From: an uncultured Chloroflexia bacterium
GTDB taxonomy: Bacteria > Chloroflexota > Limnocylindria > Limnocylindrales > CSP1-4
Length of the DNA stretch: 64,000 nt
Assembly: GCA_963726055.1 (NCBI GenBank)
Contig: CAVSAP010000001.1
Coordinates: 35,167-99,166, forward strand
Reading direction: 5' to 3'
The notes under the pieces were generated by a model. That model was not told where the DNA came from and searched no databases. It saw only the letters and a program-made list of their open reading frames with translations. Positions 43,853-58,003 of this stretch are shown piece after piece. A program made the position numbers and the translations under genes. Numbering within the stretch: the first letter of the stretch is position 1; each line of letters begins with the position of its first letter.

Positions 43853-44026
43853 TCAGCGCGCCGCGAGCGGCGACATGTAGAGGGCGACGACGAGGAGTCC
43901 CGCGAACACGGAGACGATCACGGTGAACAGCACGACCACGCGAAGCCCGAACCAGGGGCGAGGAGCCTCGAGGGCGTGGTCCGGGGGCTCCTCTGGCAGG
44001 ACCGTCAACGGATCTGCTTCGATCAC
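43853..44026 (-). CDS. 57-aa single-pass membrane protein coupled to TadG-like copy 3
   Basis: GTGA overlap with the upstream stop; MIEADPLTVLPEEPPDHALEAPRPWFGLRVVVLFTVIVSVFAGLLVVALYMSPLAAR. Confidence 0.6.
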   Translation of the reverse strand: MIEADPLTVLPEEPPDHALEAPRPWFGLRVVVLFTVIVSVFAGLLVVALYMSPLAAR

Positions 44027-46382
44027 GGGACGATGAGGTGGACCGGGTTGCCCTTGATCGCGACCTTCCAGGTGGTCACGTCGTCCGACGTTCCTGTTCC
44101 GGTCATCGTGTACTGGATCTTCCACCAGCCCGACTGGAGGGCCGTGTAGCCGCTGGGGATGGGGATCTGGATCGTCAACCAGCAGCCGTTGAACCTGCTC
44201 GACGGCGTCGAGGTCTGGACCGACGTCACGTTGTTTCCGGCGAGGGCGTTGCAGTTGGAGGCACCGGAGTTTGTCGTTCCCTTTGCGGCCGTGTAGTCGA
44301 AGGTTGTCGGCGACCAGCCGCCGGCATCCGGGACGAGGATTCGGAGCGTTCCACTCAGTGGGCTGGTGTCACCCGGGTCCCAGAGCTTGATCTCGACCGT
44401 CTTGCCGGCGTGGACGGCGTCGATCTGGGCCAGGTAGAACTCCGATGAGACGGCCGGTCCCGACGCCGACAGCGGCGTGAAGGCCTGCATCGCCCCGATG
44501 CCATAGATGCGGGGCGTCCCGACAGTCGCTCTCGTGTAGAGGGCAAAGCTGTTCTCGCCGTACGTCCCTCGGGTGTCACCGACACCGTTCGGGTCGGTCG
44601 TGGTCGTGTGGACACGGTAGATCTTGCCGCCGGCGAGCCCACTGGCCAGGAGGTACCAGCGGTTGTGGTAATCACGACCGTCACCGTAGGCCGTGTCTGT
44701 CGTGTACCGGCACTGCGTCGGCGTGCCTGTCGTCGTGCCGCCCATCGTCGAGTCCGAACCCTTCATCCCCAGGAACATTGAGGTCGACGTCGCGACAGCA
44801 GGTCCATCGTCGGTGATGTCCGTGAGCGTGCCCTTGGTGTCGAAGACCTCGTACGAGGAGTTGACGAGATCGACACCGTCATCGTCGAACCAGCGGTCGC
44901 CGGTTCCCTTGTTGTTCTGCGGTCGCGCAGAAGCCGGGGTCGTAGACGTACACGGAGCCGCCGCTGGAGCCCGGGGGCATCTCGATCGCGTAGTTGTAGA
45001 ACTCGCTGGGCCCGTACGCCGGGTTGATCGTGCCGCCGTGCGTGTCGTAGTACGCCTGGTGGATGTCGCCGTTGACGTTCTCGGCACCCTCTGTGTTCAT
45101 CGTTCCCCAGAAGCCATTGGGGCTGAGGACCTGCCCGTCGGCCTCGTAGCAGTCTGACGACGCCGGTGGTGCAGTCGGTGCCCGGGCCCTCGACGGGCAT
45201 GTCGACCGGCGCCGTGGTTGTTGTCACGGGTGTCTGCGTCACCGTGTCGATGCCGTAGTTCGCCTGAACCTGGATCATGTCAACCCGGAGCAGGGTGGCG
45301 ACCGTGCACGGCGAGGGGCCCTTGGTCGCGGTCAGCCGGACGCGGAAGTTGCTGTTCCCCAGATCGTTGCCGGTCCATGTGTGGGCGGGCAATGCCAGCG
45401 GCCAGGCCGTGACCGCTGTGGCCGATCCCAGCGTGTAGTCCGTAGAGGTAGTCGTCGTGAGGCTGCCGGTCGTCGGGGCGCGGTTGTTGGCGGTGGCCGT
45501 CGTCCAGTGGAGTCCGGCGTCGTACGACAGGGCCACCTGGATGAAGCTGCCTGCGCACGCGAGGTTCACGAAGGCGTCAGTCAACCGAACCTGGATTCCA
45601 TTGACCGTCGTTGCCGTCTGGTTGGCCGCCAGGCCGGAAAGCAGGTCGAAGTCTCGCCAGATCTGGTTGCGGCCGTTCGTGTTCGTCTGGGCGTAGACGT
45701 TATCGTTCCCGCCGACGGCGGTGATGAGCGTGCCACCGCTGACCGCCCACGCTGCCGTCGACGGAACCGTCGCCGTGATGGCGGTCGGAACCTTGAGGCC
45801 GGAGTTCCCCGTCGACGGCGTGTGCACGTCGACCATGTTCGTCGTGGTCGAGGTGAAGCCACGGGAGGGTCCGAAGACGCCGTACCAGTTGTCCGGGCTG
45901 CCCATCGGGACGGGCAGGACGAACTCCGCGCGGGCGACCCGGGTCGAGTTGATCTGGTTGATGCCGAAGATCCGCATGAAGAACATGTCGACCGGCGCCG
46001 AGACGGTGACTTCCAGGCGACGCCCGGTGACGGCTGGCTGCTGGACCGGGGTCACGGAAATTACCAAGGACGCGTCGTCGTAGCCGTTCTTTGTCGCCTC
46101 GGCCCTGGCCAGGGCGTAGGCCCCGCCGGCGCCGCCGGGGTTGGTCGGCAGCTGGACGACGCCGGCGAGAGCGGCCGCGTCGGCGGCCCGCTGGACGCGG
46201 AGCGAGTTGACCCAGTACCACGAGACGTCGATGACGAGGGCGACCATCCCGGTGAAGACGAAGATCGCCATCACGAACAGGATCAGGATCTGACCGCGCG
46301 AGCGCTCGGTCGTGGGTCGTTTCGCCCCGAGCGGGCGATCGCCCCGGTTCCGAGTCTCAGCCAGGTCGTTCACAGTTGTCAC
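44023..46382 (-). CDS. TadG-like pseudopilin/adhesin, copy 3 (frameshifts ~45150 and ~44925)
   Basis: Prepilin-like 'RGQILILFVMAIFVFTGMVALVIDVSWYW...QRAADAAALAGV'; C-terminal 'FYLAQIDAVHAGKTVEIKLWDPGD...GWWKIQY...GNPVHLIVP'. Confidence 0.8.
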
Positions 46383-46388
46383 CTTGTC

Positions 46389-47018
46389 TCAGCTGGCGCC
46401 CGGATTGAGGGCCATGATGGTTCGGTCGTTGATCCTGAGCTGCGCCGTTCCGGTCATGCCCATGAAGTTTCCCAACGGCGTGACGTACAGGTAGTCGTAG
46501 ACGAGGCTCACGCCGAGCGAGTCCGGGTTGACCCCGTTGTTCCTTCCGCACGGACTCCAGCTGTCTGCGCCGGCGCGGACGAACAGGAGTTGAACACCGT
46601 CCACCGGGGGACCGTTACCGGGGATCCACCTGTTCGACTGGCCCAGGGTGTCGGCGCCATTGGCATCTGCCTTGTAGATCCTGATTTCCTTGACCTGGGC
46701 GATCGGCAACTGGCCGCCGGCTCCGGTCAGGACGCGCTGCACCGCCGCGATGATGTAGGCGTCGACGTTCGCGAGTGGATCGATGGCCGGGCTACACGCG
46801 ACTTCGGCGGTTCCGGATGCCAGCGCCGCGCCGTATCGGGCGCCCTCACGGGTGGCGTATTCGAGTGTCAGGTGGTGGGAGAAGGCGAAGCCGAACTCCA
46901 GCATGCCCAGCAGGAGGATGAGGACGACCGGCATCGCGATCGAGAGCTCGATGAGGCTCTGGCCTCGCTCGCCGGTCCGACGAGTGGTCAATGCGCGAAG
47001 GCGCGCCAGGGTCTTCAC
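46389..47018 (-). CDS. TadE-family pseudopilin
   Basis: 'ERGQSLIELSIAMPVVLILLLGMLEFGFAFSHHLTLEYATREGARYGA'. Confidence 0.9.
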   Translation of the reverse strand: MKTLARLRALTTRRTGERGQSLIELSIAMPVVLILLLGMLEFGFAFSHHLTLEYATREGARYGAALASGTAEVACSPAIDPLANVDAYIIAAVQRVLTGAGGQLPIAQVKEIRIYKADANGADTLGQSNRWIPGNGPPVDGVQLLFVRAGADSWSPCGRNNGVNPDSLGVSLVYDYLYVTPLGNFMGMTGTAQLRINDRTIMALNPGAS

Positions 47019-47677
47019 AGGATCGGCTCCATCCGCATCGAGTTGGCCTTGATGATCGTGTAGCCCGAACCCGACAGCTGCAGAATCCCTGCCAGCGGCG
47101 TGCGCCAGGTGTAGCTGTAGCTCACCTCGACGCCGATCTGGTCGACGGCGGTGGTCGCGGGCAGCGGTGCATTTGCCGGGCAGCCCGCGAGGACGTTGCA
47201 GCGCTTCACGTCCTCGTAGTTCTGGCCACCGGCAAGCGTGTACGGGACCGTGACCGTGATCGGGCCTGGGAAGATGCAGCTCATCGATCCGGTTCTGTTG
47301 TACGTGTTGATTGCCTGCTTAACGCCGAGACGGTCGGCCTTGAAGATCTGGACGCTGGTCACCTTGGCGTGATCGGACGGCGCGGTGATCGAGTCCTCGA
47401 CCTTGGTGAGGATCACGCAGTCCGCACCGTCGCCATTGCCGGCTTCGGCCGCGATCAGCGCGGCTTCGCGCGTGGCGAAGTTGACCGCCAGGACCGCGTT
47501 GAGGGCAAAGGCGAACTCGATGATCCCCACGAGAAGGAGGACGAACAGCGGAACGACCAGGGCGAATTCGACGAGGCTCTGGCCGCGGCGGCGTTCCGCG
47601 CCTTCGGGGCGGCGCAGGAAACCGCGACGCCGGCGGACCGAGCCTGGCCCGGCGCCCTGGCGCAGCTGATGTGACAT
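47015..47677 (-). CDS. TadE-family pseudopilin
   Basis: 'RRGQSLVEFALVVPLFVLLLVGIIEFAFAL...ATREAALIAA'. Confidence 0.9.
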   Translation of the reverse strand: MSHQLRQGAGPGSVRRRRGFLRRPEGAERRRGQSLVEFALVVPLFVLLLVGIIEFAFALNAVLAVNFATREAALIAAEAGNGDGADCVILTKVEDSITAPSDHAKVTSVQIFKADRLGVKQAINTYNRTGSMSCIFPGPITVTVPYTLAGGQNYEDVKRCNVLAGCPANAPLPATTAVDQIGVEVSYSYTWRTPLAGILQLSGSGYTIIKANSMRMEPIL

Positions 47678-47884
47678 CGTCGTTGAGGACCTCACGAGTA
47701 GGTTGGCTGTGGCGGAATTGGGTGGCGCTGGAAGGGGACTGGGCCCCGTCGTGATCGTGCGGGTGGGGTCTGCTGCGGTCCCCCTGACCGTCGTACGGGG
47801 CGCGTCGGTACTTGCGAAGGAGGTCAGGGCTTCTGCGGCTTGATGAATCAATCTGGTCCCCGTAGGTTGCGGACTCTTGAGATC

Positions 47885-47954
47885 AAGCTAGGGCCGCGAC
47901 CTTGAGTCGGTCCTTGAAACGTTGCCCGCCTGCATAGCCCCTTCGGCGGGTTCG
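47885..47954 (-). promoter_or_regulatory. promoter module A: TCAAGG-N6-TCAAGG, N9, -10 TAGCTT, plus a 23-bp upstream element
   Basis: Repeats at 47900-47905 and 47912-47917; -10 at 47885-47890; CGAACCCGCCGAAGGGGCTATGC identical to module B. Confidence 0.65.
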
Positions 47955-48006
47955 ATGCGGACAGGAGTCATCGCGGGGCGCATCGCTGCAGCGGTCGGGC
48001 AAACGA

Positions 48007-48038
48007 TTGAGCCGCGCCCGATCGCGGACGCGGCTCAA
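48007..48038 (-). terminator. 13-bp hairpin TTGAGCCGCGTCC/GGGCGCGGCTCAA after TadG-like copy 2
   Basis: Inverted repeat about 35 nt after the stop, followed by TCGTTT on the minus strand; near-identical to 50524-50557. Confidence 0.7.
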
Positions 48039-48072
48039 GAAGTTGGGAGGGAGTCCCCCGCCGATGCCTCGG

Positions 48073-50336
48073 CTACGGGACGATGAGGTGGACCGGGTTC
48101 CCGAGGATCGCCACCTGCCAGGTGGTCGTGTCGTTGGCGGCGCCGACTTCGTACTCGATCTTCCACCAGCCGGGCTCCGTTTCGCCGGCCGGGGTGAGCC
48201 CGACCGAGCCGTAGCTCGACGGCAGCGGGATGGTGATCGTGATGACGCTGTTGTCGAAGCTGCTGCCGGTCCCGCTGATGGCGGTCCTGATGTTTGTGCG
48301 GTTCGAAGCGGAGCAGACGTCGCTGGTCCCGGAGTTGCACTCGGCGTCCGCGAGATAGTCGAAGACCGCGTAGTTGTAGGCGTTGCCGTCGGGGCTCTTG
48401 ATCCGGAGCCTGGCGTCGCCGGCCACGTCGCCCGGGTCGAAGAGCTGGATCTCCATCGTCTTTCCGGCATGGACCGCTTCGATCTGGGCGAGGTAGAACT
48501 CCTGGCGGGCCGCGGCGCCGGTCAGGTTGGAGTAGGCCGCCATCTTGGCCTCGCCGTAGACGCGTGCCGACCCTGCACCGCCGTTGGCACCGACGTAGAT
48601 CGACCAGAGGTTCTCGGCGCCGGTCGCGGCATTGCCCGCCTGGCTCGAGACGACGTTGACCCGATACTTTCCGGCGGCCAGGCCCGCTGGCCATCGTGAC
48701 CCAGACGTTGTGCGCCGGATCGGCCTGACAGTTGGTGATCGGAGCCGCCCGTCGGGATGTCACCCGTTCCCGACCCATCGGCCGGGTTGTCGAACTGACC
48801 GCTCTGGTCCGAGGCGCGGGTCGTGTAGCTGTTGGTGGCGACGAGCGTGTCGTTGCCCTTGTCGACGGTGCCGTTCGTGTTGTACAGGAAGAACTCGGTC
48901 GTGACCGGCCCGTTCGTGATGCCGCCGCTCGCGGGAAGGCTCGTCCAGTGGTCACCGGCTCCGTAGTTCCCGCTGCCGGCCGGGTTCGATCCCGTGGCGC
49001 AGAAGACCGGGTCGAAGAGATGGACGCGCCCGCTGGTCCCGTTGATCTCGACGATGTAGTCATAGCCCGTCGTGATCTGCTCGGTGTTCAGTGCCGACCC
49101 TCCGCCGGTGAACCACTTCGGCGAATACCGGTCGCCGTTCTGACGGACACCTCCGCCGGTGAAGACCGCGCCCCAGAAGCCCTGGCTCGTCGGCGCGATC
49201 GTCTCGCCGGCCGGGGTCGGCACGGGCACGGTGGCCGGGGTGTAGGTGATGGGCCCGGGCAGCATCGGGTGGTACGTGACGCGGACCTCGAGCGTGTCCA
49301 CGGAGGCCGTCCGGCTCGCGCCGCAGTTGGTGGTGGGCCTGTTCCACATCAGGCGGACCCGGAAGTTCGCATCCGTGAAGCTGGAGTACAGCCATTGCGG
49401 CGGCGTGCCCGGCCGCGGCCAGGCGGTCAGGTTGGACGCGCTGCCGATCGTGTACTGCGTCTCGGCGAGCGTGATCGTCTGGTCGACCGGCGTGGTCGTA
49501 AAGGCGACGCCGTTGTTGTAGGAGAGCGTCGTCCGGATTCGACAGCCCGTGGAGTTGCCCGATCCCGTCAGGATCGCGCGGAAGCGGACCTCGATGCCCT
49601 CGATGACCGCGCCAGTCGGGATGCTGCCGGCGCCGGTCGTGAGACCGAACGTTCCCCATTGCTGCGCGGCATTGTTCGTCGTCGTGCTGACCGAGTACGA
49701 GTTGTTGTCGTTGGCGTCGGCCCTGACCGGATTGGACCAGACCGTTGCGGGAAACGACGCCTGCGTCTTCCAGCCGGTGTTCGCTGTCGCGCCCGGCACG
49801 TCGGGGCCCTGGTTCGCGTTGAGCTTTTCGAATGTCCCGACGCCGTACCACTGCTGGGGGCTGCCCATCGGGACGGGCAGGACGAATTCTGCGCGAGCTG
49901 TCCGCGTCGCCTGCACCTGCGTGATGCCGAAGATCCGCATGAAGAACATGTCGACCGGCGCCGAGACCGTGACGACGAGGCGACGGCCTGTCGTCAGGGG
50001 CTCCTGGAGCGGACTGATCACGATCGCTGCAGAGGCGTCGTCGTAGCCGTTCTTCTTCGCCTCGGCCCTGGCCAGGGCGTATGCGTTGGTCGCGTTGTTC
50101 GGCAGCTGGACGACGCCGGCGAGAGCGGCCGCATCGGCGGCCCGCTGGACGCGGAGCGAGTTGACCCAGTACCACGAGACGTCGATGACGAGGGCGACCA
50201 TCCCGGTGAAGACGAAGATCGCCATCACGAACAGGATCAGGATCTGACCGCGCGAGCGCTCGGTCGTGGGTCGTTTCGCCCCGAGCGGGCGATCGCCCCG
50301 GTTCCGAGTCTCAGCCAGATCGTTCACGTTCATCAC
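48073..50336 (-). CDS. TadG-like pseudopilin/adhesin, copy 2, chimeric (frameshifts ~48745 and ~48680)
   Basis: 5' about 217 bp nearly identical to copy 3; body similar to copy 1; ends 'GNPVHLIVP*'. Confidence 0.8.
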
Positions 50337-50401
50337 CTTGTCTCAGCCTGCGCCCGGTTGGGCGAGGTTCGGTTGCCGCCAGTTGCGGGCTCTCTACAGG
50401 C

Positions 50402-50471
50402 ACGCTATGGCTGCGACCTTGATTAGGCCCTTGAATCGGTGCCCACCCGCATAGCCCCTTCGGCGGGTTCG
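50402..50471 (-). promoter_or_regulatory. promoter module B: TCAAGG-N6-TCAAGG, N9, -10 TAGCGT, plus a 23-bp upstream element
   Basis: Repeats at 50417-50422 and 50429-50434; -10 at 50402-50407. Confidence 0.65.
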
Positions 50472-50516
50472 GGGCGGGCAGAAGTCCTGTCGAGGAATCG
50501 GTGAGATCACGTGGGG

Positions 50517-50670
50517 GAAAAGGATTGAGCCGCGTCCGATAATGGACGCGGCTCAATGAGTGCGTACGAGCCCCGTGGACGGTAGAGCGCCTCGAGTGCG
50601 CCCTCACTGGACCCAGAAAGTCGATATGAGCCCGATCGCCTGAGGGAGAAGATCCTCAGCAGCGGTGGGA
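50517..50670 (-). ncRNA. candidate ~150-nt structured sRNA
   Basis: Bounded by a promoter motif (50677-50709) and a 14-bp terminator hairpin (50524-50557); two internal stems; no start codon plus RBS found. Confidence 0.4.
50524..50557 (-). terminator. perfect 14-bp hairpin ATTGAGCCGCGTCC-N6-GGACGCGGCTCAAT followed by CCTTTT
   Basis: Seen directly in the sequence. Confidence 0.75.
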
Positions 50671-50676
50671 TTCAGA

Positions 50677-50710
50677 ACATTGAGGCCGCCACCTTACGGC
50701 GAACCTTGCA
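50677..50710 (-). promoter_or_regulatory. promoter C: TGCAAGG-N6-GTAAGG, N9, -10 CAATGT
   Basis: CCTT at 50692 and 50704 (12-bp period). Confidence 0.55.
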
Positions 50711-50764
50711 ATGGTGCGTGCGCGAGTAGCCCATTCGGTCCTGTGGCGGTGACGATCGTCCCGG

Positions 50765-52297
50765 TCAGCCCTCGCCCGGTGGTTCACCGGGCAGGAAGAT
50801 GCTGAACGCGGCACCTCCGCCCGCCACCCGCGGCTCGAGGACGAGATCGCCGTCCATGGCCCGACACAGCTCGCGCGAGACGTACAGCCCCAGGCCGCTG
50901 CCATCCTCCGGGCCCATCGAGGCGCCACGGACGAACCGGCCGAACAACCGGGCGCGATCCGCTTCCGGCACGCCCGGCCCGCCGTCGGAGATCGTCATCC
51001 GGACCCTCGCCGGTGTCTCCTCGGCGGCCACGTCGACGCGGATCGGCGTCCGGTGGCCGTACTTCACGGCGTTGTCCAGCAGCGCCCAGAGGACCTGGTC
51101 GAGCTGATCGGTGTCGGCGATCGCCAGCCAACCGTCGGATCGGTCGTCGATCTCGAACGGCGTGTCGGCGGCGCCGAGGGCCTCCCACGCCCGGCGGACC
51201 CGCGGCCCGAGCGAGACCACCTCGCCCCGCGGATGCAGGGCGCCCGACTCGAGTCGGGTGACGGTCAGCAGCTGGCGAACCATCCGCGACAGGCGCTCCG
51301 CCTGCTCCGCGATGATCCCGAGGCGGCGGTCCGGCCGGTCGCCGTCCAGCTGATGCGCGTACGCACGGATGCTGGTCAGCGGCGTCTGGAGGTTGTGGCT
51401 GACGCCGCGAAGGAAGTCGTCCTTGGCCGCGTCGAGCTCGAGCAGCTGGTGGTTCTGGGCCTCGACCCGGGCGAACAGCTCGGCATTCCGGATGGCCACG
51501 GCGACTTCGCTGGCGTACAGCTCGAGGAGATCCTGGTCGGCCCGATCCCACCCCCGCGTCGCCGGCAGGTGACCGACGAGCAGCCCGAGTTCCTCCTCAC
51601 CGGCGCGCAGGGTTGCCCGGACCGGCAGCGGCTCGCCCGGGATCCGCGGCTCCGGCGGGATCTGTGCCGGGTCGACGAGCAGGATCCAGCAGTCGACCAT
51701 GCCGAAGGCGGCCCGGGCGTCGGACGAGGCCCGCCCGGCGAGGAACTCGACGCCGTCGCGCGGAGACGCGGTCTCGAGCGCCGCGAGAATCCGCCCGAGC
51801 TCGCGGTTCCGGCGCTCGAGCGTCGCGGCGAGCCGGTTGTGGCTGTCGGCGAGGTGGGCCAGCTCGTCGTTGCCCGGCACGATGATGGGGGTCGACAGGT
51901 CGCCGGCGGAGACACGATCGACGGCCGACGCGATCGCCCGCAGCGGGCCCATCAGGTCCGCCGTGAGGAGGTAGCCGAGCAGGATCCCGAGCAGGGCGGC
52001 CATGACGACCGTGAACAGGAGCAGCCGGCCGATCGTTCCGACCGGTCCGACGTTGTCGCCGACGAGCAGGACCACCAGCCCGAAGCTGGCCAGCGGGATG
52101 ATCGCGGCCGCGACCAGGCCGATCGTGAGCCGCGAGCGGAACGGCAGGTTGAACGACGACCGCCCATCACCTTCGTCGTCGCGGTCGCGGGGATCATCGA
52201 TTGCAAGGAGAGCCGCGACCATTGCCGATCGCTCATCGTCGTCGGCCGGGAGATCCTGGCTGGCGGCTCCGGGAACCGGCTGCACGCCGTCAGCCAT
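50765..52297 (-). CDS. sensor histidine kinase (2 TM, HAMP, GAF-like, HisKA, HATPase_c)
   Basis: H-box 'VSHNLQTPLTSIR', N-box 'LLDNAVKYG', 'DGGPGVP', 'GSGLGLYV'; HAMP 'GPLRAIASAVDRVSAGDLS'. Confidence 0.92.
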   Translation of the reverse strand: MADGVQPVPGAASQDLPADDDERSAMVAALLAIDDPRDRDDEGDGRSSFNLPFRSRLTIGLVAAAIIPLASFGLVVLLVGDNVGPVGTIGRLLLFTVVMAALLGILLGYLLTADLMGPLRAIASAVDRVSAGDLSTPIIVPGNDELAHLADSHNRLAATLERRNRELGRILAALETASPRDGVEFLAGRASSDARAAFGMVDCWILLVDPAQIPPEPRIPGEPLPVRATLRAGEEELGLLVGHLPATRGWDRADQDLLELYASEVAVAIRNAELFARVEAQNHQLLELDAAKDDFLRGVSHNLQTPLTSIRAYAHQLDGDRPDRRLGIIAEQAERLSRMVRQLLTVTRLESGALHPRGEVVSLGPRVRRAWEALGAADTPFEIDDRSDGWLAIADTDQLDQVLWALLDNAVKYGHRTPIRVDVAAEETPARVRMTISDGGPGVPEADRARLFGRFVRGASMGPEDGSGLGLYVSRELCRAMDGDLVLEPRVAGGGAAFSIFLPGEPPGEG

Positions 52298-53027
52298 CGG
52301 CCGGTGGTTCCACCGCTACGAGCCGGTAGCCGACGCCCCGCACGGTCTGGAGGTGGACCGGGTGGTTCGGGTCGATCTCGACCTTCTGGCGGAGCCGGCG
52401 CATCGTGACCCAGACGTATGACGGGTCGGCGTCCTCGGTCTCGGCCCAGCCTCGGACGAGCAGGGTCTCGGTCGTCACCGTCTGGCCGATGTTCGCCGCC
52501 AGCGCGTACAGCAATCGGGACTCGGTCGGCGTGAGCGAGACCGGATTCGCCCCGACGGTCGCCTGGCGACGATGAAGGTCGAGCGTCAGGTTCGGGCCGA
52601 GACGGAGACTCTGCCGCGGGACCTTGTCCCCGAGGCGCTTGAGGACCCTGTTGATCCGCGCCCGGAGCTCCGGATAGTGGTACGGCTTGGTGACGTAATC
52701 CTCAGCGACCTCTTCGAGGAGGTCCGCCTTGGAGTCGCTGGCATCGATCGCCGACAGGACGATGATCGGCAGATCGGCCTGGCCCTTGATCTCGCGGGCC
52801 AGGGTCAGCCCGTCCATCCGGGGCATCATCATGTCGATGATCAGGAGATCGGGCCAGCCCGACCGCAGCCGGCGCAGCGCCTCGTCGCCGTCCCGCGCGG
52901 TCTGGATCTCGTAGCCGTCCGCCCGCAACTGGTCGGCCAGGAGGACGAGCTGGTTCGGGTCGTCATCGACGAGGAGGATTCGGGGGGCCGTCTCGCCACC
53001 GTATGCGCCTGATGGACCGCTGAGCAT
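52290..53027 (-). CDS. OmpR/PhoB family response regulator
   Basis: 'ILLVDDD', phospho-Asp 'LIIDMMMPRMDG', 'DYVTKPY', winged helix 'LTPTESRLL...RRLRQKVE...QTVRGVGYRL'; leaderless TATACT-N6-ATG. Confidence 0.95.
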   Translation of the reverse strand: MLSGPSGAYGGETAPRILLVDDDPNQLVLLADQLRADGYEIQTARDGDEALRRLRSGWPDLLIIDMMMPRMDGLTLAREIKGQADLPIIVLSAIDASDSKADLLEEVAEDYVTKPYHYPELRARINRVLKRLGDKVPRQSLRLGPNLTLDLHRRQATVGANPVSLTPTESRLLYALAANIGQTVTTETLLVRGWAETEDADPSYVWVTMRRLRQKVEIDPNHPVHLQTVRGVGYRLVAVEPPADG

Positions 53028-53087
53028 GGCCCGAGTATAGGCAGAGGCGGATCAGGCTCCGCAAGGTCTCAGGCGTGGATCGGGGAC

Positions 53088-54080
53088 TCAGCCGCTGGGA
53101 GCCGGGGCCGACGGGGCGGCCGATTTCGTCGCCCTCGGTGCCTTCGCCTTGCCGGCACCGACCACGACCGCATCGAGGGAACCGTCGCTGCGTTTGACTC
53201 CTGTTGCCACGAGCCGGTTGCCGATCTCGACGTTGGCGATGGTCGCCTTCGCTCCATTCAGGCCCCGCACGAGGTAGCGAGTGTCGGCGTCGACATGGAT
53301 GACGACGCTCGAGCCGTCGCGCTGCTTGACGGTGATCGTGTCCGCCGTCTTGGCCGTGACCTCGCCACCGACGCGGGACAGCGAGATCCGGACGATCGTC
53401 GCGGTGAAGGCATCGCTCGAGCCGGGCGCGCCCGTGGCGGTGATCTTCGAGCCGACCTTGACGTCGGCCTTCGTCGCGTCGACTCCACCCTGTCGGTACA
53501 CGGTCGAGCCGTTCACGGTCAGCGTCGTCGTGCTTCCGCCGCGTCGCTTGATCGTGATGGAATTGCCGCTCACGGCTGTGACTTCACCACCGGCCCTGGC
53601 GGCAGGCACGGTCAGGGAGACGACCGTGAACGAGCCGTCGGCATTCTTTGTCTGCCGGAGCCGGACTTCGTGGCCGACGGCCAGGTCGCCGACCTGCCCT
53701 GCCTCCTTGCCAAGGAAGATCTTCGTGTCGGCGGCGACAACGATCGTGCGAGTCCAGCCGTCCGCGGTCTTCAGACCGATGGTCGAGCCATTGATGCTCG
53801 TGATCGTGATGGGTCCGAACGCCGAGCCGCCGCGCGACTTCTTGCCCTGACCGCCGCCGTTTGCTCGATCGCCTGCCTTGTCGGAGGCGGCTGCGGACGC
53901 CGCGGCACCGCTTGGGGCCGGATCCGCGCCGGGCGACGTTCGCGGGGCCGAGGAGGCGCCGAGGACGACGGCCACGCCGACGCCCAGAACCAGGCAGGCC
54001 GCCACGATGCCGGTGCGGGCAGCCTGCCCGCCGCCGGAGCGTCGGGGAGTCGGCGGGACAGGGGCGATCTCGTAGGTCAC
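53088..54080 (-). CDS. DUF5666 repeat membrane-anchored protein
   Basis: N-terminal TM, then three 'G.(V/I)T...G..IT.K..DG....(I/V).V...T' repeats. Confidence 0.8.
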   Translation of the reverse strand: MTYEIAPVPPTPRRSGGGQAARTGIVAACLVLGVGVAVVLGASSAPRTSPGADPAPSGAAASAAASDKAGDRANGGGQGKKSRGGSAFGPITITSINGSTIGLKTADGWTRTIVVAADTKIFLGKEAGQVGDLAVGHEVRLRQTKNADGSFTVVSLTVPAARAGGEVTAVSGNSITIKRRGGSTTTLTVNGSTVYRQGGVDATKADVKVGSKITATGAPGSSDAFTATIVRISLSRVGGEVTAKTADTITVKQRDGSSVVIHVDADTRYLVRGLNGAKATIANVEIGNRLVATGVKRSDGSLDAVVVGAGKAKAPRATKSAAPSAPAPSG

Positions 54081-54217
54081 ATCATGCCTCGGTTGTGGTC
54101 GCGGGTGCGTCGCTGCCCTAGCCTACTGCCCCGAATCCGTCGCGCTAGGGGGTCGAGGTCCTGCCGCGACGGTTGATGGTGCGCGTGCGCGCCATCGCCG
54201 CACGGCTCAGCTGCCGC

Positions 54218-54355
54218 TCAGCCGCCGATCCCCTGCAGGCCGTACATCCAGATCGCGATGAGGCCGCCGAAGATCACGACGATGATCGTCATCACGATGA
54301 GCGCGGTCATGGTCCGGTTTCGATCCGTGCGGGGCGATCGGCCGGGGTCGGTCAT
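54218..54355 (-). CDS. 45-aa single-pass membrane protein coupled to TadG-like copy 1
   Basis: ATGA overlap; MTDPGRSPRTDRNRTMTALIVMTIIVVIFGGLIAIWMYGLQGIGG; below the ORF-track length cutoff. Confidence 0.6.
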   Translation of the reverse strand: MTDPGRSPRTDRNRTMTALIVMTIIVVIFGGLIAIWMYGLQGIGG

Positions 54356-56590
54356 TCAACGACGAGGTGGACCAGGTTCTCGAGGATGGCCACTTGCCAT
54401 GTGGTCGTGTCGTTGGCCTTGGCGACCTCGTACTCGATTTTCCACCAGCCAGGTTCGGTTTCTGTGCCGGGTGTGAGCCCGCCGTCACCGTAGGTCGCCG
54501 ATAGCGGGATGGTGATCGTGATGACGCTGTTGTCGAAGCTGCTGAGGCCGCCGACCGCGGTTCTGATGGAGGTCCGGCCCGATGCCGCGCAGGCGTCGCT
54601 CGTCCCGGAGTTGCATTCGCCGTCGGCTTGATAGTCGAACGTTGCGTAGGAGTAGGAGCCGCCGTCGGGATTCATGATGCGAAGGGTGGCACCACCTGCG
54701 ACGTCGCCCGGGTCGAACAACTTGATCTCCATCGTCTTTCCCCGGTGAACGGCCTCGATCTGCGCGAGGTAGAACCGCTGGCGATCCGTGGGATTGGTGC
54801 CAGTCAGGTTGGAGTAGGCCGCCATCTTGCCGAGCCCGTACACGCGGGCGGATCCAGTCCCGCCGCCGTCGCCGACGTAGATCGACCAGAGGTTCTCGGC
54901 GGCCGTCGCGGCATTGCCCGGATGACTCGTCTTGACGTTGAGGCGGTATTTCGCGGCCGATAGCCCGGTGTTCATCGTGACCCAGGCGTTATGCGCGGGA
55001 TCGCTCTGGCAATCGGCAATCGGGCCGCCTGTGGGGATGTCACCTGCTCCCGGACCGCCGACGTCTGGATCATCAAACTCGCCGCTCTGGTTCGAGGCGC
55101 GGCTCGTGTAGGGCGGCAGGGTCGAGACCTGTGTGTCGTCACTCGGGTCGAGAACCGTGCCGTTGGTGTTGTAGAGGGTGAACTCCGTCGTGACCGGCCC
55201 GTTGGCGGTGCCCCCACTGGCGGGAAGGGTGGTCCAGTGATCGCCGGCGCCGTAGTTCCCGCTGCCGGCGGGGTTCACTCCCGTCGCGCAGAAGACCGGG
55301 TCGAAGAGATGGACTCGCCCGTTCGACGCGCCAAACTCGACGATGTAGTCGTAGCCTTCGACGATCTGCTCTGCGTTCAGTGCCGACGAGCCACCGGCGT
55401 ACCAGTGCGGCGAATACCGATCTCCGTTCTGGCGGACGCCGCCCGCCGTGAAGACCGCGCCCCAGAAGCCCTGGCTCGTGGGCGCCACCGTCTCACCGGG
55501 CGGGGGCGGGACAGGGACTGTGACCGGCGTGTAGGTGATGGGCCCGGGGAGCATCGGGTGGTACGTGACGCGGACCTCGAGCGTGTCAACGGATGCCCTG
55601 GAGCTCGCGTCACAACCGCTCAGCTTGTTCCACGTCAGACGAACCCGAAAGTTTGCGTCGGTGAAGCTGGAGAACGCCCACGAGCCTGCCCCGGGCGGTC
55701 GCGGCCAGCCCGGACAGGCCCGAGGCGCTGCCGATCGTGTACTCGTCCTCGGACGTGGTCAGATCCTGGTTCAGGGCCGTCGTGGTCCAGGCCAATCCAC
55801 CGTTCCAGGACAGATTCGTCTGGAGCTGGCAGTTCGAGGCGCTCCCGCCGCTCCCAGTGATGACGGCGCGGTATCGAACCTCGATCCCCTCGATCACGGC
55901 GCCGGTCGGGATGCCGGTGCCGCCGCTCGTGAGCCCGAAGTCACCCCATTGCTGGGCGGATCCGTCCGCCGCCAGGCTGACAGCGAAGTCGTCGTCGTCC
56001 TGGTCGTCGGCGTTTTCGGGAGTCGCCCAGCTGCCGGCAGACGGCGTTCCGGGGCTACGGAAGGTGGTATCCGTGGTGGGACCTGGCACGGGTGGTGCCT
56101 GGACGCGATCGAGCTTTTCGAACGTTCCGACGCCATACCACTGCTGCGGGCTGCCCATCTTCAGGGGCAGGTTGAACTCGGCATGGGCGGTTCGTGACAC
56201 GGTGAAGGATTGCATCCCCACGACCCGCATGAAGAACGTGCCGACCGGCACCGTGATCTTGACGTTCAACCTGTAGGGGTTCGCCTGCGGGTCCCAGCTC
56301 GGGCTGACGACGACGCCGCCGACTCCATCGTCATAGCCGTTCTTGATCGCCTCCTTGTGGGCGAGCTGGTATCCGCGGGGCGGATCAGCCGGCAGCGTGA
56401 CCGCTCCGGCGAGCGCGGCCGCGTCTGCGGCACGCTGGATCTTCAGGGCGCTCGACCAGAGCCAGCTCAGGTCGATGACGATCGCCATCATCAGCGTCAT
56501 GACGAGCATCGCCCCGGCGAAGATCACGATGACCTGCCCGTTCGATCGACGGTCGGCCGGCGCCGCCAGGAGGTCCGGCCGCTCAGCCAT
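54352..56590 (-). CDS. TadG-like pseudopilin/adhesin, copy 1 (frameshift ~55710)
   Basis: 'NGQVIVIFAGAMLVMTLMMAIVIDLSWLW...QRAADAAALAGA'; C-half in ORF 54352-55554; an extra G in 'tccGggctgg' breaks the frame. Confidence 0.82.
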
Positions 56591-57206
56591 CCTGGAACGG
56601 CTCCAGGGCCATGATCGTGCGGTCCGTGATGCGCAGGTTTCCCGCACCGCCGATCCTCAGAAACGTCCCGAGCGGGGTGATCGCGTTGTAGTCGTATTTC
56701 AACGACACGCCGATCGAGTCGGGTTCAGCCGTCGGGGTCAGGAATTTCTCGCGTGAACAGGCGCTCCACGGCTGGCTGATCGGCCTCCACACCAGGGGAG
56801 TGTTGTCGACTCGCCGGCCATCCGAGCCGGGCACCCAGACATTCACTGGGCCAGCCTCGCCACCCGTGGCGTTGGCCTTGTAGATGCGGATTTCCACGAC
56901 CTGATCCCTTGGCACCTGCGAGCCCGGCGACGTGATCACCCGCTGCACCGCAGCGATGATCAGGTCATCGACATTCTCCAGGCTGTTGGGTGCGCAGAGC
57001 ACCGTCTTCGTGCCGTTTGCGAGCGCGGCACCGACACGGGCCCCCTCGCGGGTGGCGTACTCGAGTGTCAGGTGATGCGAGAAGGCGAGACCGAACTCGA
57101 GCATCCCGAAGAGGATGACCATGAAGGCCGGCAGAAGGATCGCAAACTCGACGAGGCCCTGGCCTCGCCGACCCAATCTCGTAGCGCGCCCTGGCCGCCG
57201 AGTCAC
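56583..57206 (-). CDS. TadE-family pseudopilin
   Basis: 'RRGQGLVEFAILLPAFMVILFGMLEFGLAFSHHLTLEYATREGARVGA'; paralog of 46389-47018. Confidence 0.9.
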   Translation of the reverse strand: MTRRPGRATRLGRRGQGLVEFAILLPAFMVILFGMLEFGLAFSHHLTLEYATREGARVGAALANGTKTVLCAPNSLENVDDLIIAAVQRVITSPGSQVPRDQVVEIRIYKANATGGEAGPVNVWVPGSDGRRVDNTPLVWRPISQPWSACSREKFLTPTAEPDSIGVSLKYDYNAITPLGTFLRIGGAGNLRITDRTIMALEPFQDG

Positions 57207-57865
57207 AGCACGGGCTCCATCCGCATGACGCTGTCCCTGACCAGCCTGGTGGTGCCGCTGGAGCCCCCAAACAGGCCGCCGAGGGGCGTATGCCAGACGT
57301 AGTCATAGGTCACTCGGACCCCGATCTGATCGACGCCGATCTGCGTGGGCGTGCAGCCGATGATGCGGTTGCACCGGTTGAGCGGCGGATACGAATCGCC
57401 GCTGACCGTGTAGGGAACCGCCAGCGCTGGGGCTCCGCCTGGCATCGGGCAGGTCTTCATGCCTCCCCGATCGTAGGTCGTGATGTTCCCCGTCTCATTG
57501 CCGGCGCGATCAGCGCGGAAGATCTCGACCTTGATGATCCGGTTGCGGTCGGCAGGCACCGTGACGCTCGCATCGACTGCCTCCAGGATCAGGCAATCAG
57601 ACCGGCTGAGGTTGCCTGCCTCGGCCGCAATCAGCGACGCCTCGCGGCTGGCGAAGTTGATCGCCAGGTAGGAGTTGAAGAGAAACCCGAACTCGACCAC
57701 GGACATGATGAGCAACATGAACAGCGGCAGGACAAGCGCGAATTCGGTGAGGGTCTGGCCGGAGCCACGCCGGCTCCGCCGACCTCTGGTCGGCGGCCGG
57801 CCCCCCTCGTTGGATCGCGACACGATTGCTCGATTACCCCGGAAAGACGCGTGCGGATACGGCAC
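57203..57865 (-). CDS. TadE-family pseudopilin
   Basis: 'GSGQTLTEFALVLPLFMLLIMSVVEFGFLF...ASREASLIAA'; paralog of 47015-47677. Start at 57865 or 57823. Confidence 0.9.
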   Translation of the reverse strand: MPYPHASFRGNRAIVSRSNEGGRPPTRGRRSRRGSGQTLTEFALVLPLFMLLIMSVVEFGFLFNSYLAINFASREASLIAAEAGNLSRSDCLILEAVDASVTVPADRNRIIKVEIFRADRAGNETGNITTYDRGGMKTCPMPGGAPALAVPYTVSGDSYPPLNRCNRIIGCTPTQIGVDQIGVRVTYDYVWHTPLGGLFGGSSGTTRLVRDSVMRMEPVL

Positions 57866-57881
57866 GTTGGGTGAGGTCTGG

Positions 57882-57916
57882 AGGGTACCGGATCAGTCCT
57901 TACGATCCACCTTGCA
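57882..57916 (-). promoter_or_regulatory. promoter D: TGCAAGG-N6-GTAAGG, N10, -10 TACCCT
   Basis: CCTT at 57898 and 57910 (12-bp period); -10 at 57882-57887. Confidence 0.6.
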
Positions 57917-58003
57917 GTGATGGGGAAATGTGCGGTCTGGTGCAGTTCGGTGCAGATCTGACCAGTACTTCTGGCCCATGACCCTCGGTCCGGCGATCCC
58001 CGG

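What the first reader, a model, noticed from the sequence alone, without database searches (positions are those of the whole stretch)
47885..57916. Four promoters share a 12-bp-period AAGG direct repeat placed like a pho box
Seen on the minus strand: TTCAAGG-accgac-TCAAGG-N9-TAGCTT (47885-47918), TTCAAGG-gcctaa-TCAAGG-N9-TAGCGT (50402-50435), TGCAAGG-ttcgcc-GTAAGG-N9-CAATGT (50677-50710) and TGCAAGG-tggatc-GTAAGG-N10-TACCCT (57882-57916). One precedes each Tad unit and one precedes the candidate sRNA. Established: OmpR/PhoB regulators bind tandem direct repeats (usually about 11-bp period) that replace the -35, about 10 bp upstream of the -10. Inference: the regulon of the embedded response regulator. 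The two sub-types (TCAAGG/TCAAGG versus GCAAGG/GTAAGG) could give graded or alternative cassette activation.
Basis: partly seen in the sequence, partly recalled or inferred. Interest (0 to 1): 0.62.

Follow-up and report, generated by a model that had tools for sequence, protein, structure and literature searches.

The report
Response-regulator-type promoter motif of Tad cassettes
A 12-bp-spaced direct repeat (TGCAAGG-N5-TGCAAGG), sitting exactly 9-10 bases before a -10 box, marks the promoters of Tad minor-pilin/adhesin gene cassettes throughout an uncultured class of Chloroflexota and almost certainly is the docking site of the two-component response regulator encoded beside them.

Summary
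The four sites are in the sequence exactly as described. They are far beyond chance. A fifth site lies on another contig, before a fourth TadG-like gene.

The organism is not an actinobacterium. It is a Limnocylindria (Chloroflexota) genome assembled from a metagenome.

The motif is conserved across the class. The consensus is T(G/T)CAAGG-N5-(T/C)GCAAGG(T)-N9(10)-nAnnnT. The period is strictly 12 bp: 61 pairs at period 12, 0 at 11 and 2 at 13. The distance to the -10-like box is fixed: 45 of 53 unbiased non-coding hits have it at N9.

About 80% of sites are followed by a TadE- or TadG-type gene. The most conserved site lies directly after the histidine-kinase gene of a single-copy OmpR-type regulator/kinase pair. 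This holds in two families, even where the regulator is only about 50% identical. The regulator's recognition helix is nearly invariant.

A genome-wide scan with a matrix built from sites outside this genome returns exactly these five sites.

The reading as a PhoB/CiaR-style activator site that replaces the -35 is therefore well supported by comparison.

The TTCAAGG and TGCAAGG sub-types are real, conserved classes. Their functional meaning is unknown.

The "sRNA" is more likely an orphan leader left where a Tad unit was lost.

This is a new member of a known kind, of moderate interest.

The parts
47885..47918 (-). Site s1 (TTCAAGG sub-type): TTCAAGG-ACCGAC-TCAAGG-N9-TAGCTT. It is the promoter of unit C (TadE 47015-47851, TadE 46389-47018, TadG-like 44023-46382). 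Predicted transcription start is about 47878.
   Evidence: It scores 24.9 bits with a matrix built from sites outside this genome. The orthologue in G011 is conserved.
47919..47950 (-). Upstream block of s1: CCGAAGGGGCTATGC-N6-GCAAC. This is the GGGCTATGC-N6-GCACCGT element that goes with every TTCAAGG-type site.
   Evidence: it is present in 16 of 16 TTCAAGG-type sites, from at least 6 genera. Its role is unknown.
50402..50435 (-). Site s2 (TTCAAGG sub-type): TTCAAGG-GCCTAA-TCAAGG-N9-TAGCGT. It is the promoter of TadG-like gene B (48073-50336). Predicted transcription start is about 50395.
   Evidence: It scores 21.9 bits. The G011 orthologue is conserved. It is a paralogous duplicate of the s1 region.
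50436..50467 (-). Upstream block of s2: CCGAAGGGGCTATGC-N6-GCACCGA.
50677..50710 (-). Site s3: TGCAAGG-TTCGCC-GTAAGG-N9-CAATGT, starting 55 nt after the kinase stop codon. This kinase-proximal position is the most conserved location of the motif across the class.
50516..50670 (-). Transcript predicted from s3, about 150 nt. It has no ORF and ends in the intrinsic terminator at 50557-50516. It is either an orphan leader or a candidate sRNA.
   Evidence: (no Rfam match). The same arrangement is found in 4 close relatives. In G014, G016 and most genera, the equivalent site drives a TadE-like gene instead.
57882..57916 (-). Site s4: TGCAAGG-TGGATC-GTAAGG-N10-TACCCT. It is the promoter of unit A (TadE 57203-57865, TadE 56583-57206, TadG-like 54352-56647). 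It may read through into DUF5666-RR-HK.
   Evidence: It scores 27.9 bits with N10. The G011 orthologue has CAAAG in the first repeat.
52290..53027 (-). OmpR/PhoB-family response regulator (receiver domain plus winged-helix Trans_reg_C domain). It is the proposed binder of the repeats.
   Evidence: Pfam; below the cut-off of every named equivalog. D65, K114 and the recognition helix SYVWVTMRRLRQK are nearly invariant in 39 genera; the nearest solved structures are MtrA and RegX3.
50765..52297 (-). Cognate sensor histidine kinase (HAMP, HisKA, HATPase_c).
53034..53039 (-). TATACT -10 box, 6 nt before the regulator's ATG. This is the pair's own promoter, giving a leaderless mRNA. It carries no repeat motif.
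   Evidence: The same cgTATACTccgcccATG is present in G016.
48000..48038 (-). Intrinsic terminator after TadG-like gene B. It is near-identical to the terminator at 50516-50557 and is part of the duplicated terminator-plus-promoter module.

Best explanation
The repeats are the operator of activator-dependent promoters. Two heptamers, T(G/T)CAAGG, are spaced exactly 12 bp start to start. With the transcription start taken as about 7 nt after the -10 box, they occupy about -40 to -22. This is where a -35 box would be, and it ends 9 (sometimes 10) nt before a weak nAnnnT -10 box.

Proposed mechanism. The phosphorylated OmpR/PhoB-family response regulator encoded in the locus (52290-53027, with kinase 50765-52297) binds the two heptamers as a head-to-tail dimer. 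It recruits the housekeeping RNA polymerase holoenzyme, as PhoB does at pho boxes and CiaR does at TTTAAG-N5-TTTAAG.

In this genome the regulon has five promoters. Four drive paralogous Tad minor-pilin/adhesin cassettes (units A, B and C in the window, and a fourth TadG-like gene at C6:337277-339613). One is the kinase-proximal site s3, which now drives only a short terminated transcript. The regulator/kinase pair has its own leaderless TATACT promoter. It may also be fed by read-through from s4.

Shown here: the motif, its strict period, its fixed distance to the -10 box, its class-wide conservation, and its linkage to the regulator/kinase pair and to TadE/TadG genes.

Inferred: who binds the repeats, that the effect is activation, and the transcription start sites.
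For: Sites verified.

Fifth site, in front of an intact 778-aa TadG-like gene on another contig.

Conservation of orthologous sites in the genus, while spacers and flanks diverge.

Across the family, the strict pattern gives 36 hits in 27 of 151 genomes (18 of 49 genera). The reversed control pattern gives 2.

24 of 31 fetched sites are followed on the same strand by a TadE-type GQxxVEFAL..P gene.

Unbiased test on 38 kinase-orthologue loci, about one per genus: 12 have a site of 15 bits or more just 3' of the kinase, against 0 in antisense and coding controls.

The regulator is adjacent to the kinase in 39 of 40 loci.

Motif presence is associated with kinase presence: 25 of 102 genomes against 2 of 49, Fisher p = 0.001.

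The same RR-HK-[site]-TadE order is found in a second family of the class, where the RR is 42-56% identical.

Spacing to nAnnnT is N9 in 45 of 53 repeat-only hits.

Period 12 in 61 pairs, against 0 at period 11 and 2 at period 13.

No sigma-70-like -35/-10 pair exists in the region.

A matrix built from sites outside this genome ranks s5, s3, s4, s1 and s2 as the top five in the whole genome. The next hits lie in coding-like sequence.

The regulator's phospho-acceptor D65, K114 and recognition helix are nearly invariant across 39 genera.

Precedents. CiaR uses a direct repeat about 10 bp from the -10 box, and its regulon includes sRNA genes (PMC3091779). An OmpR-type two-component system next to flp/tad activates that cluster in Pectobacterium (PMC3767616).
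Against: - No binding, expression or transcription-start data exist.
- The 12-bp period is longer than the 10-11 bp usual for OmpR/PhoB-family sites. A dimer would have to span more than one helical turn.
- The link to this particular regulator rests on gene neighbourhood and co-occurrence only. The genome holds other OmpR-type regulators.
- In about half of the kinase loci there is no strong site directly after the kinase.
- One Tad unit of this genome (C6:540.5-543.1 kb) has no site.
- Extra conserved elements suggest further factors: the GGGCTATGC-N6-GCACC block and the GTAC palindromes.
Confidence: 0.7

Rival explanations
1. The repeats are a genuine promoter operator, but a different DNA-binding protein reads them. 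This could be another OmpR-type regulator, or an orphan winged-helix activator of the SARP type, which also uses heptamer direct repeats just upstream of the -10 box. It would be encoded elsewhere. The neighbouring two-component system would then be linked only by synteny.
For: There is no direct evidence for who binds. The 12-bp period is atypical for classical OmpR/PhoB regulators. Some sites lie far from the two-component system, for example C6:337066. Two genomes have the motif but no detected kinase orthologue.
Against: The only DNA-binding gene consistently next to the motif is this regulator. This holds in 39 of 40 loci, in about 39 genera, and in a second family. The site position directly after the kinase gene is kept over deep divergence. 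The recognition helix and the motif are both nearly invariant. No SARP-like gene was seen in the loci examined.
Confidence: 0.15
2. The embedded regulator binds the repeats but acts as a repressor or roadblock that covers the -35 region, rather than as an activator.
For: The site overlaps the polymerase-binding region. Direct repeats in that position can repress. There are no expression data.
Against: No usable -35 hexamer lies under or next to the repeats (and inspection). The -10 boxes are weak (CAATGT, CAGCGT, GACCAT). The exact N9 phasing between repeat and -10 box is what is expected for a contact between activator and sigma factor, as at pho boxes and CiaR promoters.
Confidence: 0.08
3. 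The similarity only reflects common descent of duplicated promoter segments. It has no dedicated factor, or the motif is the -35 element of an alternative sigma factor.
For: s1 and s2 are clear duplicates, with about 150 bp of shared upstream sequence and a shared terminator. s3 and s5 share the spacer TTCGCC.
Against: The heptamers and their spacing stay fixed while spacers and flanks diverge. This holds across at least 18 genera and two families. The distance from either heptamer to the -10 box (9 nt and 22 nt) fits no known -35/-10 spacing. The reversed-pattern control gives 2 hits against 36.
Confidence: 0.04

Closest known systems
Pho box / PhoB-dependent promoters (E. coli Pho regulon; knowledge of the family)
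   Same: Tandem direct repeats take the place of the -35 box and end about 10 bp upstream of the -10 box. They are read by an OmpR/PhoB-family winged-helix response regulator bound head-to-tail. The promoter depends on the activator.
   Different: The half-site is TGCAAGG, not CTGTCAT. The period is 12 bp, not 11. The regulator scores 147 bits against the PhoB model, whose cut-off is 296. The target genes are Tad pseudopilin cassettes, not phosphate genes.
CiaR regulon of streptococci (TTTAAG-N5-TTTAAG, about 10 bp from the -10 box; PMC3091779)
   Same: Hexamer or heptamer direct repeat with an N5 spacer, at a fixed short distance to the -10 box. An OmpR-family regulator. The recognition helix is conserved across species and so predicts a conserved motif. 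The regulon includes short, terminated non-coding transcripts.
   Different: The period is 11 bp in CiaR and 12 bp here. The half-site differs (they share only AAG). The phylum and the target genes differ. The non-coding transcript here is weakly conserved and may be a relic.
OmpR-type two-component system flanking the flp/tad cluster in Pectobacterium (PMC3767616)
   Same: An OmpR-family regulator/kinase pair is encoded next to Tad genes and controls them positively.
   Different: No operator was defined there. It controls the core flp/rcp/tad genes. Here the targets are several TadE/TadG minor-pilin cassettes that lie apart from the core ATPase genes. Orthology between the two systems was not tested.
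SARP-type activators of actinomycetes (knowledge of the family)
   Same: Heptameric direct repeats immediately upstream of the -10 box, read by an OmpR-like winged-helix domain.
   Different: SARP repeats have an 11-bp (or 22-bp) period. SARPs have no receiver domain. No SARP gene was seen near these sites.

Membership tests
OmpR/PhoB-family response-regulator operator (activator site replacing the -35 box) | Two or more direct (not inverted) repeats of a 6-7 bp half-site | tested here: met
   T(G/T)CAAGG occurs twice at all 5 sites of this genome and at 77 non-redundant sites in the class.
OmpR/PhoB-family response-regulator operator (activator site replacing the -35 box) | Repeat period of about one helical turn (10-11 bp) | tested here: not met
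   The period is strictly 12 bp: 61 pairs at period 12, 0 at 11 and 2 at 13. This is a variant spacing.
OmpR/PhoB-family response-regulator operator (activator site replacing the -35 box) | Promoter-proximal repeat ends about 10 bp upstream of a -10 box, and there is no consensus -35 box | tested here: met
   nAnnnT lies at N9 in 45 of 53 hits and at N10 in 9 of 53 repeat-only hits. No -35/-10 pair is found in the region.
OmpR/PhoB-family response-regulator operator (activator site replacing the -35 box) | A cognate regulator with receiver and winged-helix (Trans_reg_C) domains and an intact phospho-acceptor | tested here: met
   Pfam PF00072 and PF00486. D65 and K114 are invariant. The gene is adjacent in 39 of 40 loci.
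OmpR/PhoB-family response-regulator operator (activator site replacing the -35 box) | The phosphorylated regulator binds the repeats and activates transcription | not testable with these tools
   This needs EMSA, footprinting, DAP-seq and transcription-start mapping. The RNA-seq route was closed.
Pho regulon (true pho box) | The regulator is a PhoB/PhoP orthologue, and the targets are phosphate-acquisition genes with CTGTCAT-type repeats | tested here: not met
   The PhoB model scores 147 bits against a cut-off of 296. The half-site is TGCAAGG. The targets are TadE/TadG genes.
Regulator-dependent small RNA (csRNA-like) | Own promoter, intrinsic terminator, no ORF, and sequence or structure conserved beyond the neutral rate | tested here: inconclusive
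   Promoter and terminator are present, there is no ORF and no Rfam hit. The arrangement is present in 4 close relatives, but there are no compensatory pairs. Identity of the RNA body is 72-76%, against 67-70% at third codon positions of the kinase gene. In other genera the site drives a TadE gene.

The most novel reading that the evidence does not exclude
The promoters form a class-wide, two-tier code for choosing among interchangeable Tad minor-pilin/adhesin cassettes. One regulator reads the 12-bp-period repeats at all of them. Two conserved additions let different cassettes fire under different conditions: the GGGCTATGC-N6-GCACC block of the TTCAAGG sub-type, and the flanking GTAC palindromes (a second factor, or methylation). 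The kinase-proximal site yields a regulator-dependent RNA that feeds back on the system.
Probability: 0.15. Interest if true: 0.7.

Novelty: new member of a known kind. Interest (0 to 1): 0.45.

Why it matters
Limnocylindria are abundant soil and freshwater Chloroflexota with no cultured model and essentially no known gene regulation. This result gives the class three things that can be tested directly:
- a concrete cis-element;
- a candidate regulator;
- a small, well-bounded regulon (several paralogous Tad minor-pilin/adhesin cassettes).

The test needs only purified protein and synthetic DNA.

The result also adds a well-populated example of an OmpR-family-type operator with a strict 12-bp period. 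That is useful for understanding how much spacing these dimers tolerate. The motif can be used to annotate Tad cassette promoters in hundreds of genomes assembled from metagenomes.

Tried and rejected
- Rfam scan of 43-59 kb. Nothing relevant was found.
- Sigma-70 promoter scan. It gave 0 sites, and its terminator rule missed the two real hairpins because their T-tracts are interrupted.
- AAGG-N8-AAGG as a genome-wide probe. Rejected as unspecific, because 3n periods are inflated by Lys codons. A longer pattern and matrices with a coding-phase filter were used instead.
- A third upstream half-site in 12-bp register. Not found. The upstream AAGG-like element lies 28 nt (TTCAAGG type) or 36 nt (TGCAAGG type) from the first repeat, which is not consistent (inspection).
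- A coding remnant of a lost TadE gene behind s3. None was found.
- Locating the frameshifts of the TadG-like genes by aligning them to G011. The sequences are too diverged, at 65-69% identity.
- Linking the two sub-types to particular downstream gene types. No clear pattern appeared.
- Alternative sigma factor reading. Rejected on spacing.
Full report
**Observation.**

- s1: TTCAAGG-ACCGAC-TCAAGG-N9-TAGCTT (47918-47885).
- s2: TTCAAGG-GCCTAA-TCAAGG-N9-TAGCGT (50435-50402).
- s3: TGCAAGG-TTCGCC-GTAAGG-N9-CAATGT (50710-50677).
- s4: TGCAAGG-TGGATC-GTAAGG-N10-TACCCT (57916-57882).

The composite pattern AAGG-N8-AAGG-N9-YAnnnT has 3 matches in the window against 0.00 in shuffles.

AAGG-N8-AAGG alone is not a safe probe. 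The genome holds 127 copies, nearly all in-frame Lys codons. Periods 9, 12 and 15 are all inflated, at about 35-39 CAAGG..YAAGG pairs, against 0-4 for other periods.

The five copies that are non-coding are the four sites and a fifth at C6:337066-337099: TGCAAGG-TTCGCC-GCAAGG-N9-CAGCGT.

**Gene context.**

Reading the minus strand, the order is:
- HhH-GPD glycosylase;
- s4;
- TadE, TadE, TadG-like (unit A);
- a DUF5666 protein;
- an OmpR-type response regulator (52290-53027);
- a histidine kinase (50765-52297);
- s3, then about 150 nt without an ORF, then a terminator;
- s2;
- TadG-like gene (unit B), then a terminator;
- s1;
- TadE, TadE, TadG-like (unit C).

The fifth site precedes an intact 778-aa TadG-like paralogue on contig C6.

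s1 and s2 are duplicates. About 150 bp upstream of each, including a near-identical terminator hairpin, is homologous.

The regulator/kinase pair has its own TATACT box 6 nt before the ATG, which gives a leaderless mRNA. This box is conserved in a sister species and carries no repeat motif.

**Organism.**

Record titles of the kinase's relatives name Chloroflexota of the class Limnocylindria (Candidatus Limnocylindrales), mostly long-read soil genomes assembled from metagenomes. The window's genome is such an assembly: 3.7 Mb in 7 contigs, about 85% complete. It is not an actinobacterium, although its 69% G+C suggests one.

**Conservation.**

In sister species of the genus the orthologous sites keep the heptamers, the 12-bp period and the N9 distance to an nAnnnT box, while spacers and flanks change. 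Weaker versions (CAATG or CAAAG in one repeat) sit before further Tad units.

Across the family, the strict pattern TKCAAGG-N7-YAAGG-N10-ANNNT hits 36 places in 27 of 151 genomes (18 of 49 genera). The same pattern read backwards hits 2.

24 of 31 fetched sites are followed, mostly within 100-250 nt on the same strand, by a gene with the TadE-type GQxxVEFAL..P N-terminus.

The motif recurs in a second family of the class. Outside the class it is at background level.

**Link to the two-component system.**

- The kinase has a single-copy orthologue in 102 of 151 family genomes.
- The regulator lies directly upstream of the kinase in 39 of 40 loci, at 70-87% identity.
- I took 38 loci chosen only by kinase orthology, about one per genus, and a matrix trained only on the window's own genus. 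Twelve loci have a site of 15 bits or more within 350 nt after the kinase stop on the sense strand, and 17 have 8.5 bits or more. No antisense or coding control window reaches 15 bits.
- In the second family, where the regulator is only 42-56% identical, the order regulator-kinase-[site]-TadE is the same in 4 of 7 fetched loci.
- Genomes with the kinase carry the strict motif more often: 25 of 102 against 2 of 49, p = 0.001.
- The regulator's phospho-acceptor D65, K114 and recognition helix (SYVWVTMRRLRQK) are nearly invariant across 39 genera. This fits an invariant operator.

**Architecture.**

I used sites selected by the repeats alone, in loci chosen by kinase homology. Of 53 non-coding hits, 45 have nAnnnT exactly 9 nt after the second AAGG and 9 have it at 10 nt. 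All other spacings have 0-6.

KYAAGG pairs in the same 645 kb occur 61 times at period 12, twice at 13, never at 11, and at most once at any other period tested.

No -35-like hexamer lies at 16-18 nt from these -10 boxes (and inspection). Neither heptamer is at a distance from the -10 box (9 and 22 nt) that any sigma factor's -35 element would use.

With the transcription start taken as about 7 nt after the -10 box, the heptamers occupy about -40 to -22. This is the position of a pho box, and of the CiaR repeat, which lies 10 bp from its -10 box (PMC3091779).

**Regulon in this genome.**

A matrix built from sites outside this genome ranks s5, s3, s4, s1 and s2 as the five best hits in the whole genome. 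They score 21.9-32.6 bits and all lie in sequence without codon periodicity. The next hits lie in coding-like sequence.

One further Tad unit (C6:540.5-543.1 kb) has no site. The core Tad ATPase genes lie elsewhere, at C2:273 kb and C6:1351 kb.

**Sub-types.**

All 16 sites whose first repeat is TTCAAGG also carry an upstream block, GGGCTATGC-N6-GCACCGT. They come from at least 6 genera. The 61 other sites are TGCAAGG-like and have a looser GGTGC..GCRMC upstream pattern.

Whether this gives graded or alternative activation could not be tested. Within this window the sub-type also simply follows the s1/s2 duplication.

**The 'sRNA'.**

In the sister species G014 and G016, and in most genera, the kinase-proximal site drives a TadE-TadE-TadG unit. 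In this genome and three close relatives there is instead about 150 nt followed by a strong terminator.
- There is no coding remnant.
- There is no Rfam match.
- There are no compensatory base pairs in four sequences.
- The RNA body is 72-76% identical between this genome and the relatives. That is hardly above the 67-70% identity at third codon positions of the adjacent kinase gene. The terminator is 94-97% identical.

I read it as an orphan leader left by the loss of a Tad unit (about 60%), rather than a selected sRNA (about 35%).

**Mechanism and rivals.**

- Best reading (0.7): the phosphorylated embedded regulator binds the two heptamers head-to-tail and activates the housekeeping polymerase at promoters that lack a -35 box.
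- Rival, another winged-helix protein binds (0.15). This is disfavoured because this regulator is the only DNA-binding gene that travels with the motif.
- Rival, repression rather than activation (0.08). This is disfavoured by the missing -35 box and the exact phasing to the -10 box.
- Rival, mere paralogy or an alternative sigma factor (0.04). This is contradicted by class-wide conservation with diverged spacers, and by the spacings.

**Comparison with the known.**

It works like a pho box or a CiaR box. It is not a pho box, because the regulator, half-site and targets differ. The strict 12-bp period departs from the 10-11 bp typical of the family, so that defining feature is not met.

Control of Tad genes by an adjacent OmpR-type two-component system has a precedent in Pectobacterium (PMC3767616). 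No paper on Tad regulation in Limnocylindria turned up.

**Verdict.**

This is a new member of a known kind, of moderate interest.

Noticed in passing
window 54352-56647, 48073-50336, 44023-46382; also G000 C6:1351456-1352521: All three TadG-like genes of the window are split into two overlapping ORFs (345+400, 604+229 and 539+354 aa). The paralogue at C6:337277-339613 is one 778-aa ORF, and the G011 orthologues of units B and C are intact. A Tad-type ATPase gene on C6 is also split in two. These are either long-read assembly indels or real frameshifts.
   Followed up: partly
77 sites in related loci; in the window AGTACT at about 57959-57964; C6 just after the -10 box of s5: GTAC (often as AGTACT or GGTACY) is enriched on both sides of the repeats. 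About 37 copies were observed against 9 expected at -80 to -30 from the first repeat, and about 28 against 6 at +10 to +50. This could be a second factor's site or a methylation motif.
   Followed up: partly
window 47919-47950 and 50436-50467; 16 sites in at least 6 genera: A conserved upstream block, GGGCTATGC-N6-GCACCGT, accompanies every TTCAAGG-type site. Its function is unknown.
   Followed up: partly
window 53025-53039: The response-regulator gene appears to be leaderless. A TATACT box lies 6 nt before its ATG and is conserved in a sister species.
   Followed up: partly
window 54218-54310 (minus strand): A 30-codon ORF (MTALIVMTIIVVIFGGLIAIWMYGLQGIGG) follows the TadG-like gene of unit A. 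It looks like a small membrane peptide.
   Followed up: no
G000 C2:276711-276748 (plus strand): A degenerate repeat, CGAAAGG-TGATT-TGCAAGG, lies in non-coding sequence without a -10-like box at N9 or N10. It is about 3 kb from a Tad-type ATPase gene on the other strand. It scores 15 bits.
   Followed up: no
window 48000-48038 and 50516-50557: Two near-identical terminator hairpins (TTGAGCCGCGTCC...GGACGCGGCTCAA) show that terminator and promoter were duplicated together as one module.
   Followed up: partly
loci L069, L070, L089, L094, L149 (other genera): The leaders behind the kinase-proximal site share a conserved ribosome-binding stretch, ACAAATACCGCCGGGGGTCATA..ATG. This window keeps only a decayed version (GGCGATCGGGCTCATATCGAC) in which the ATG is lost.
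   Followed up: partly
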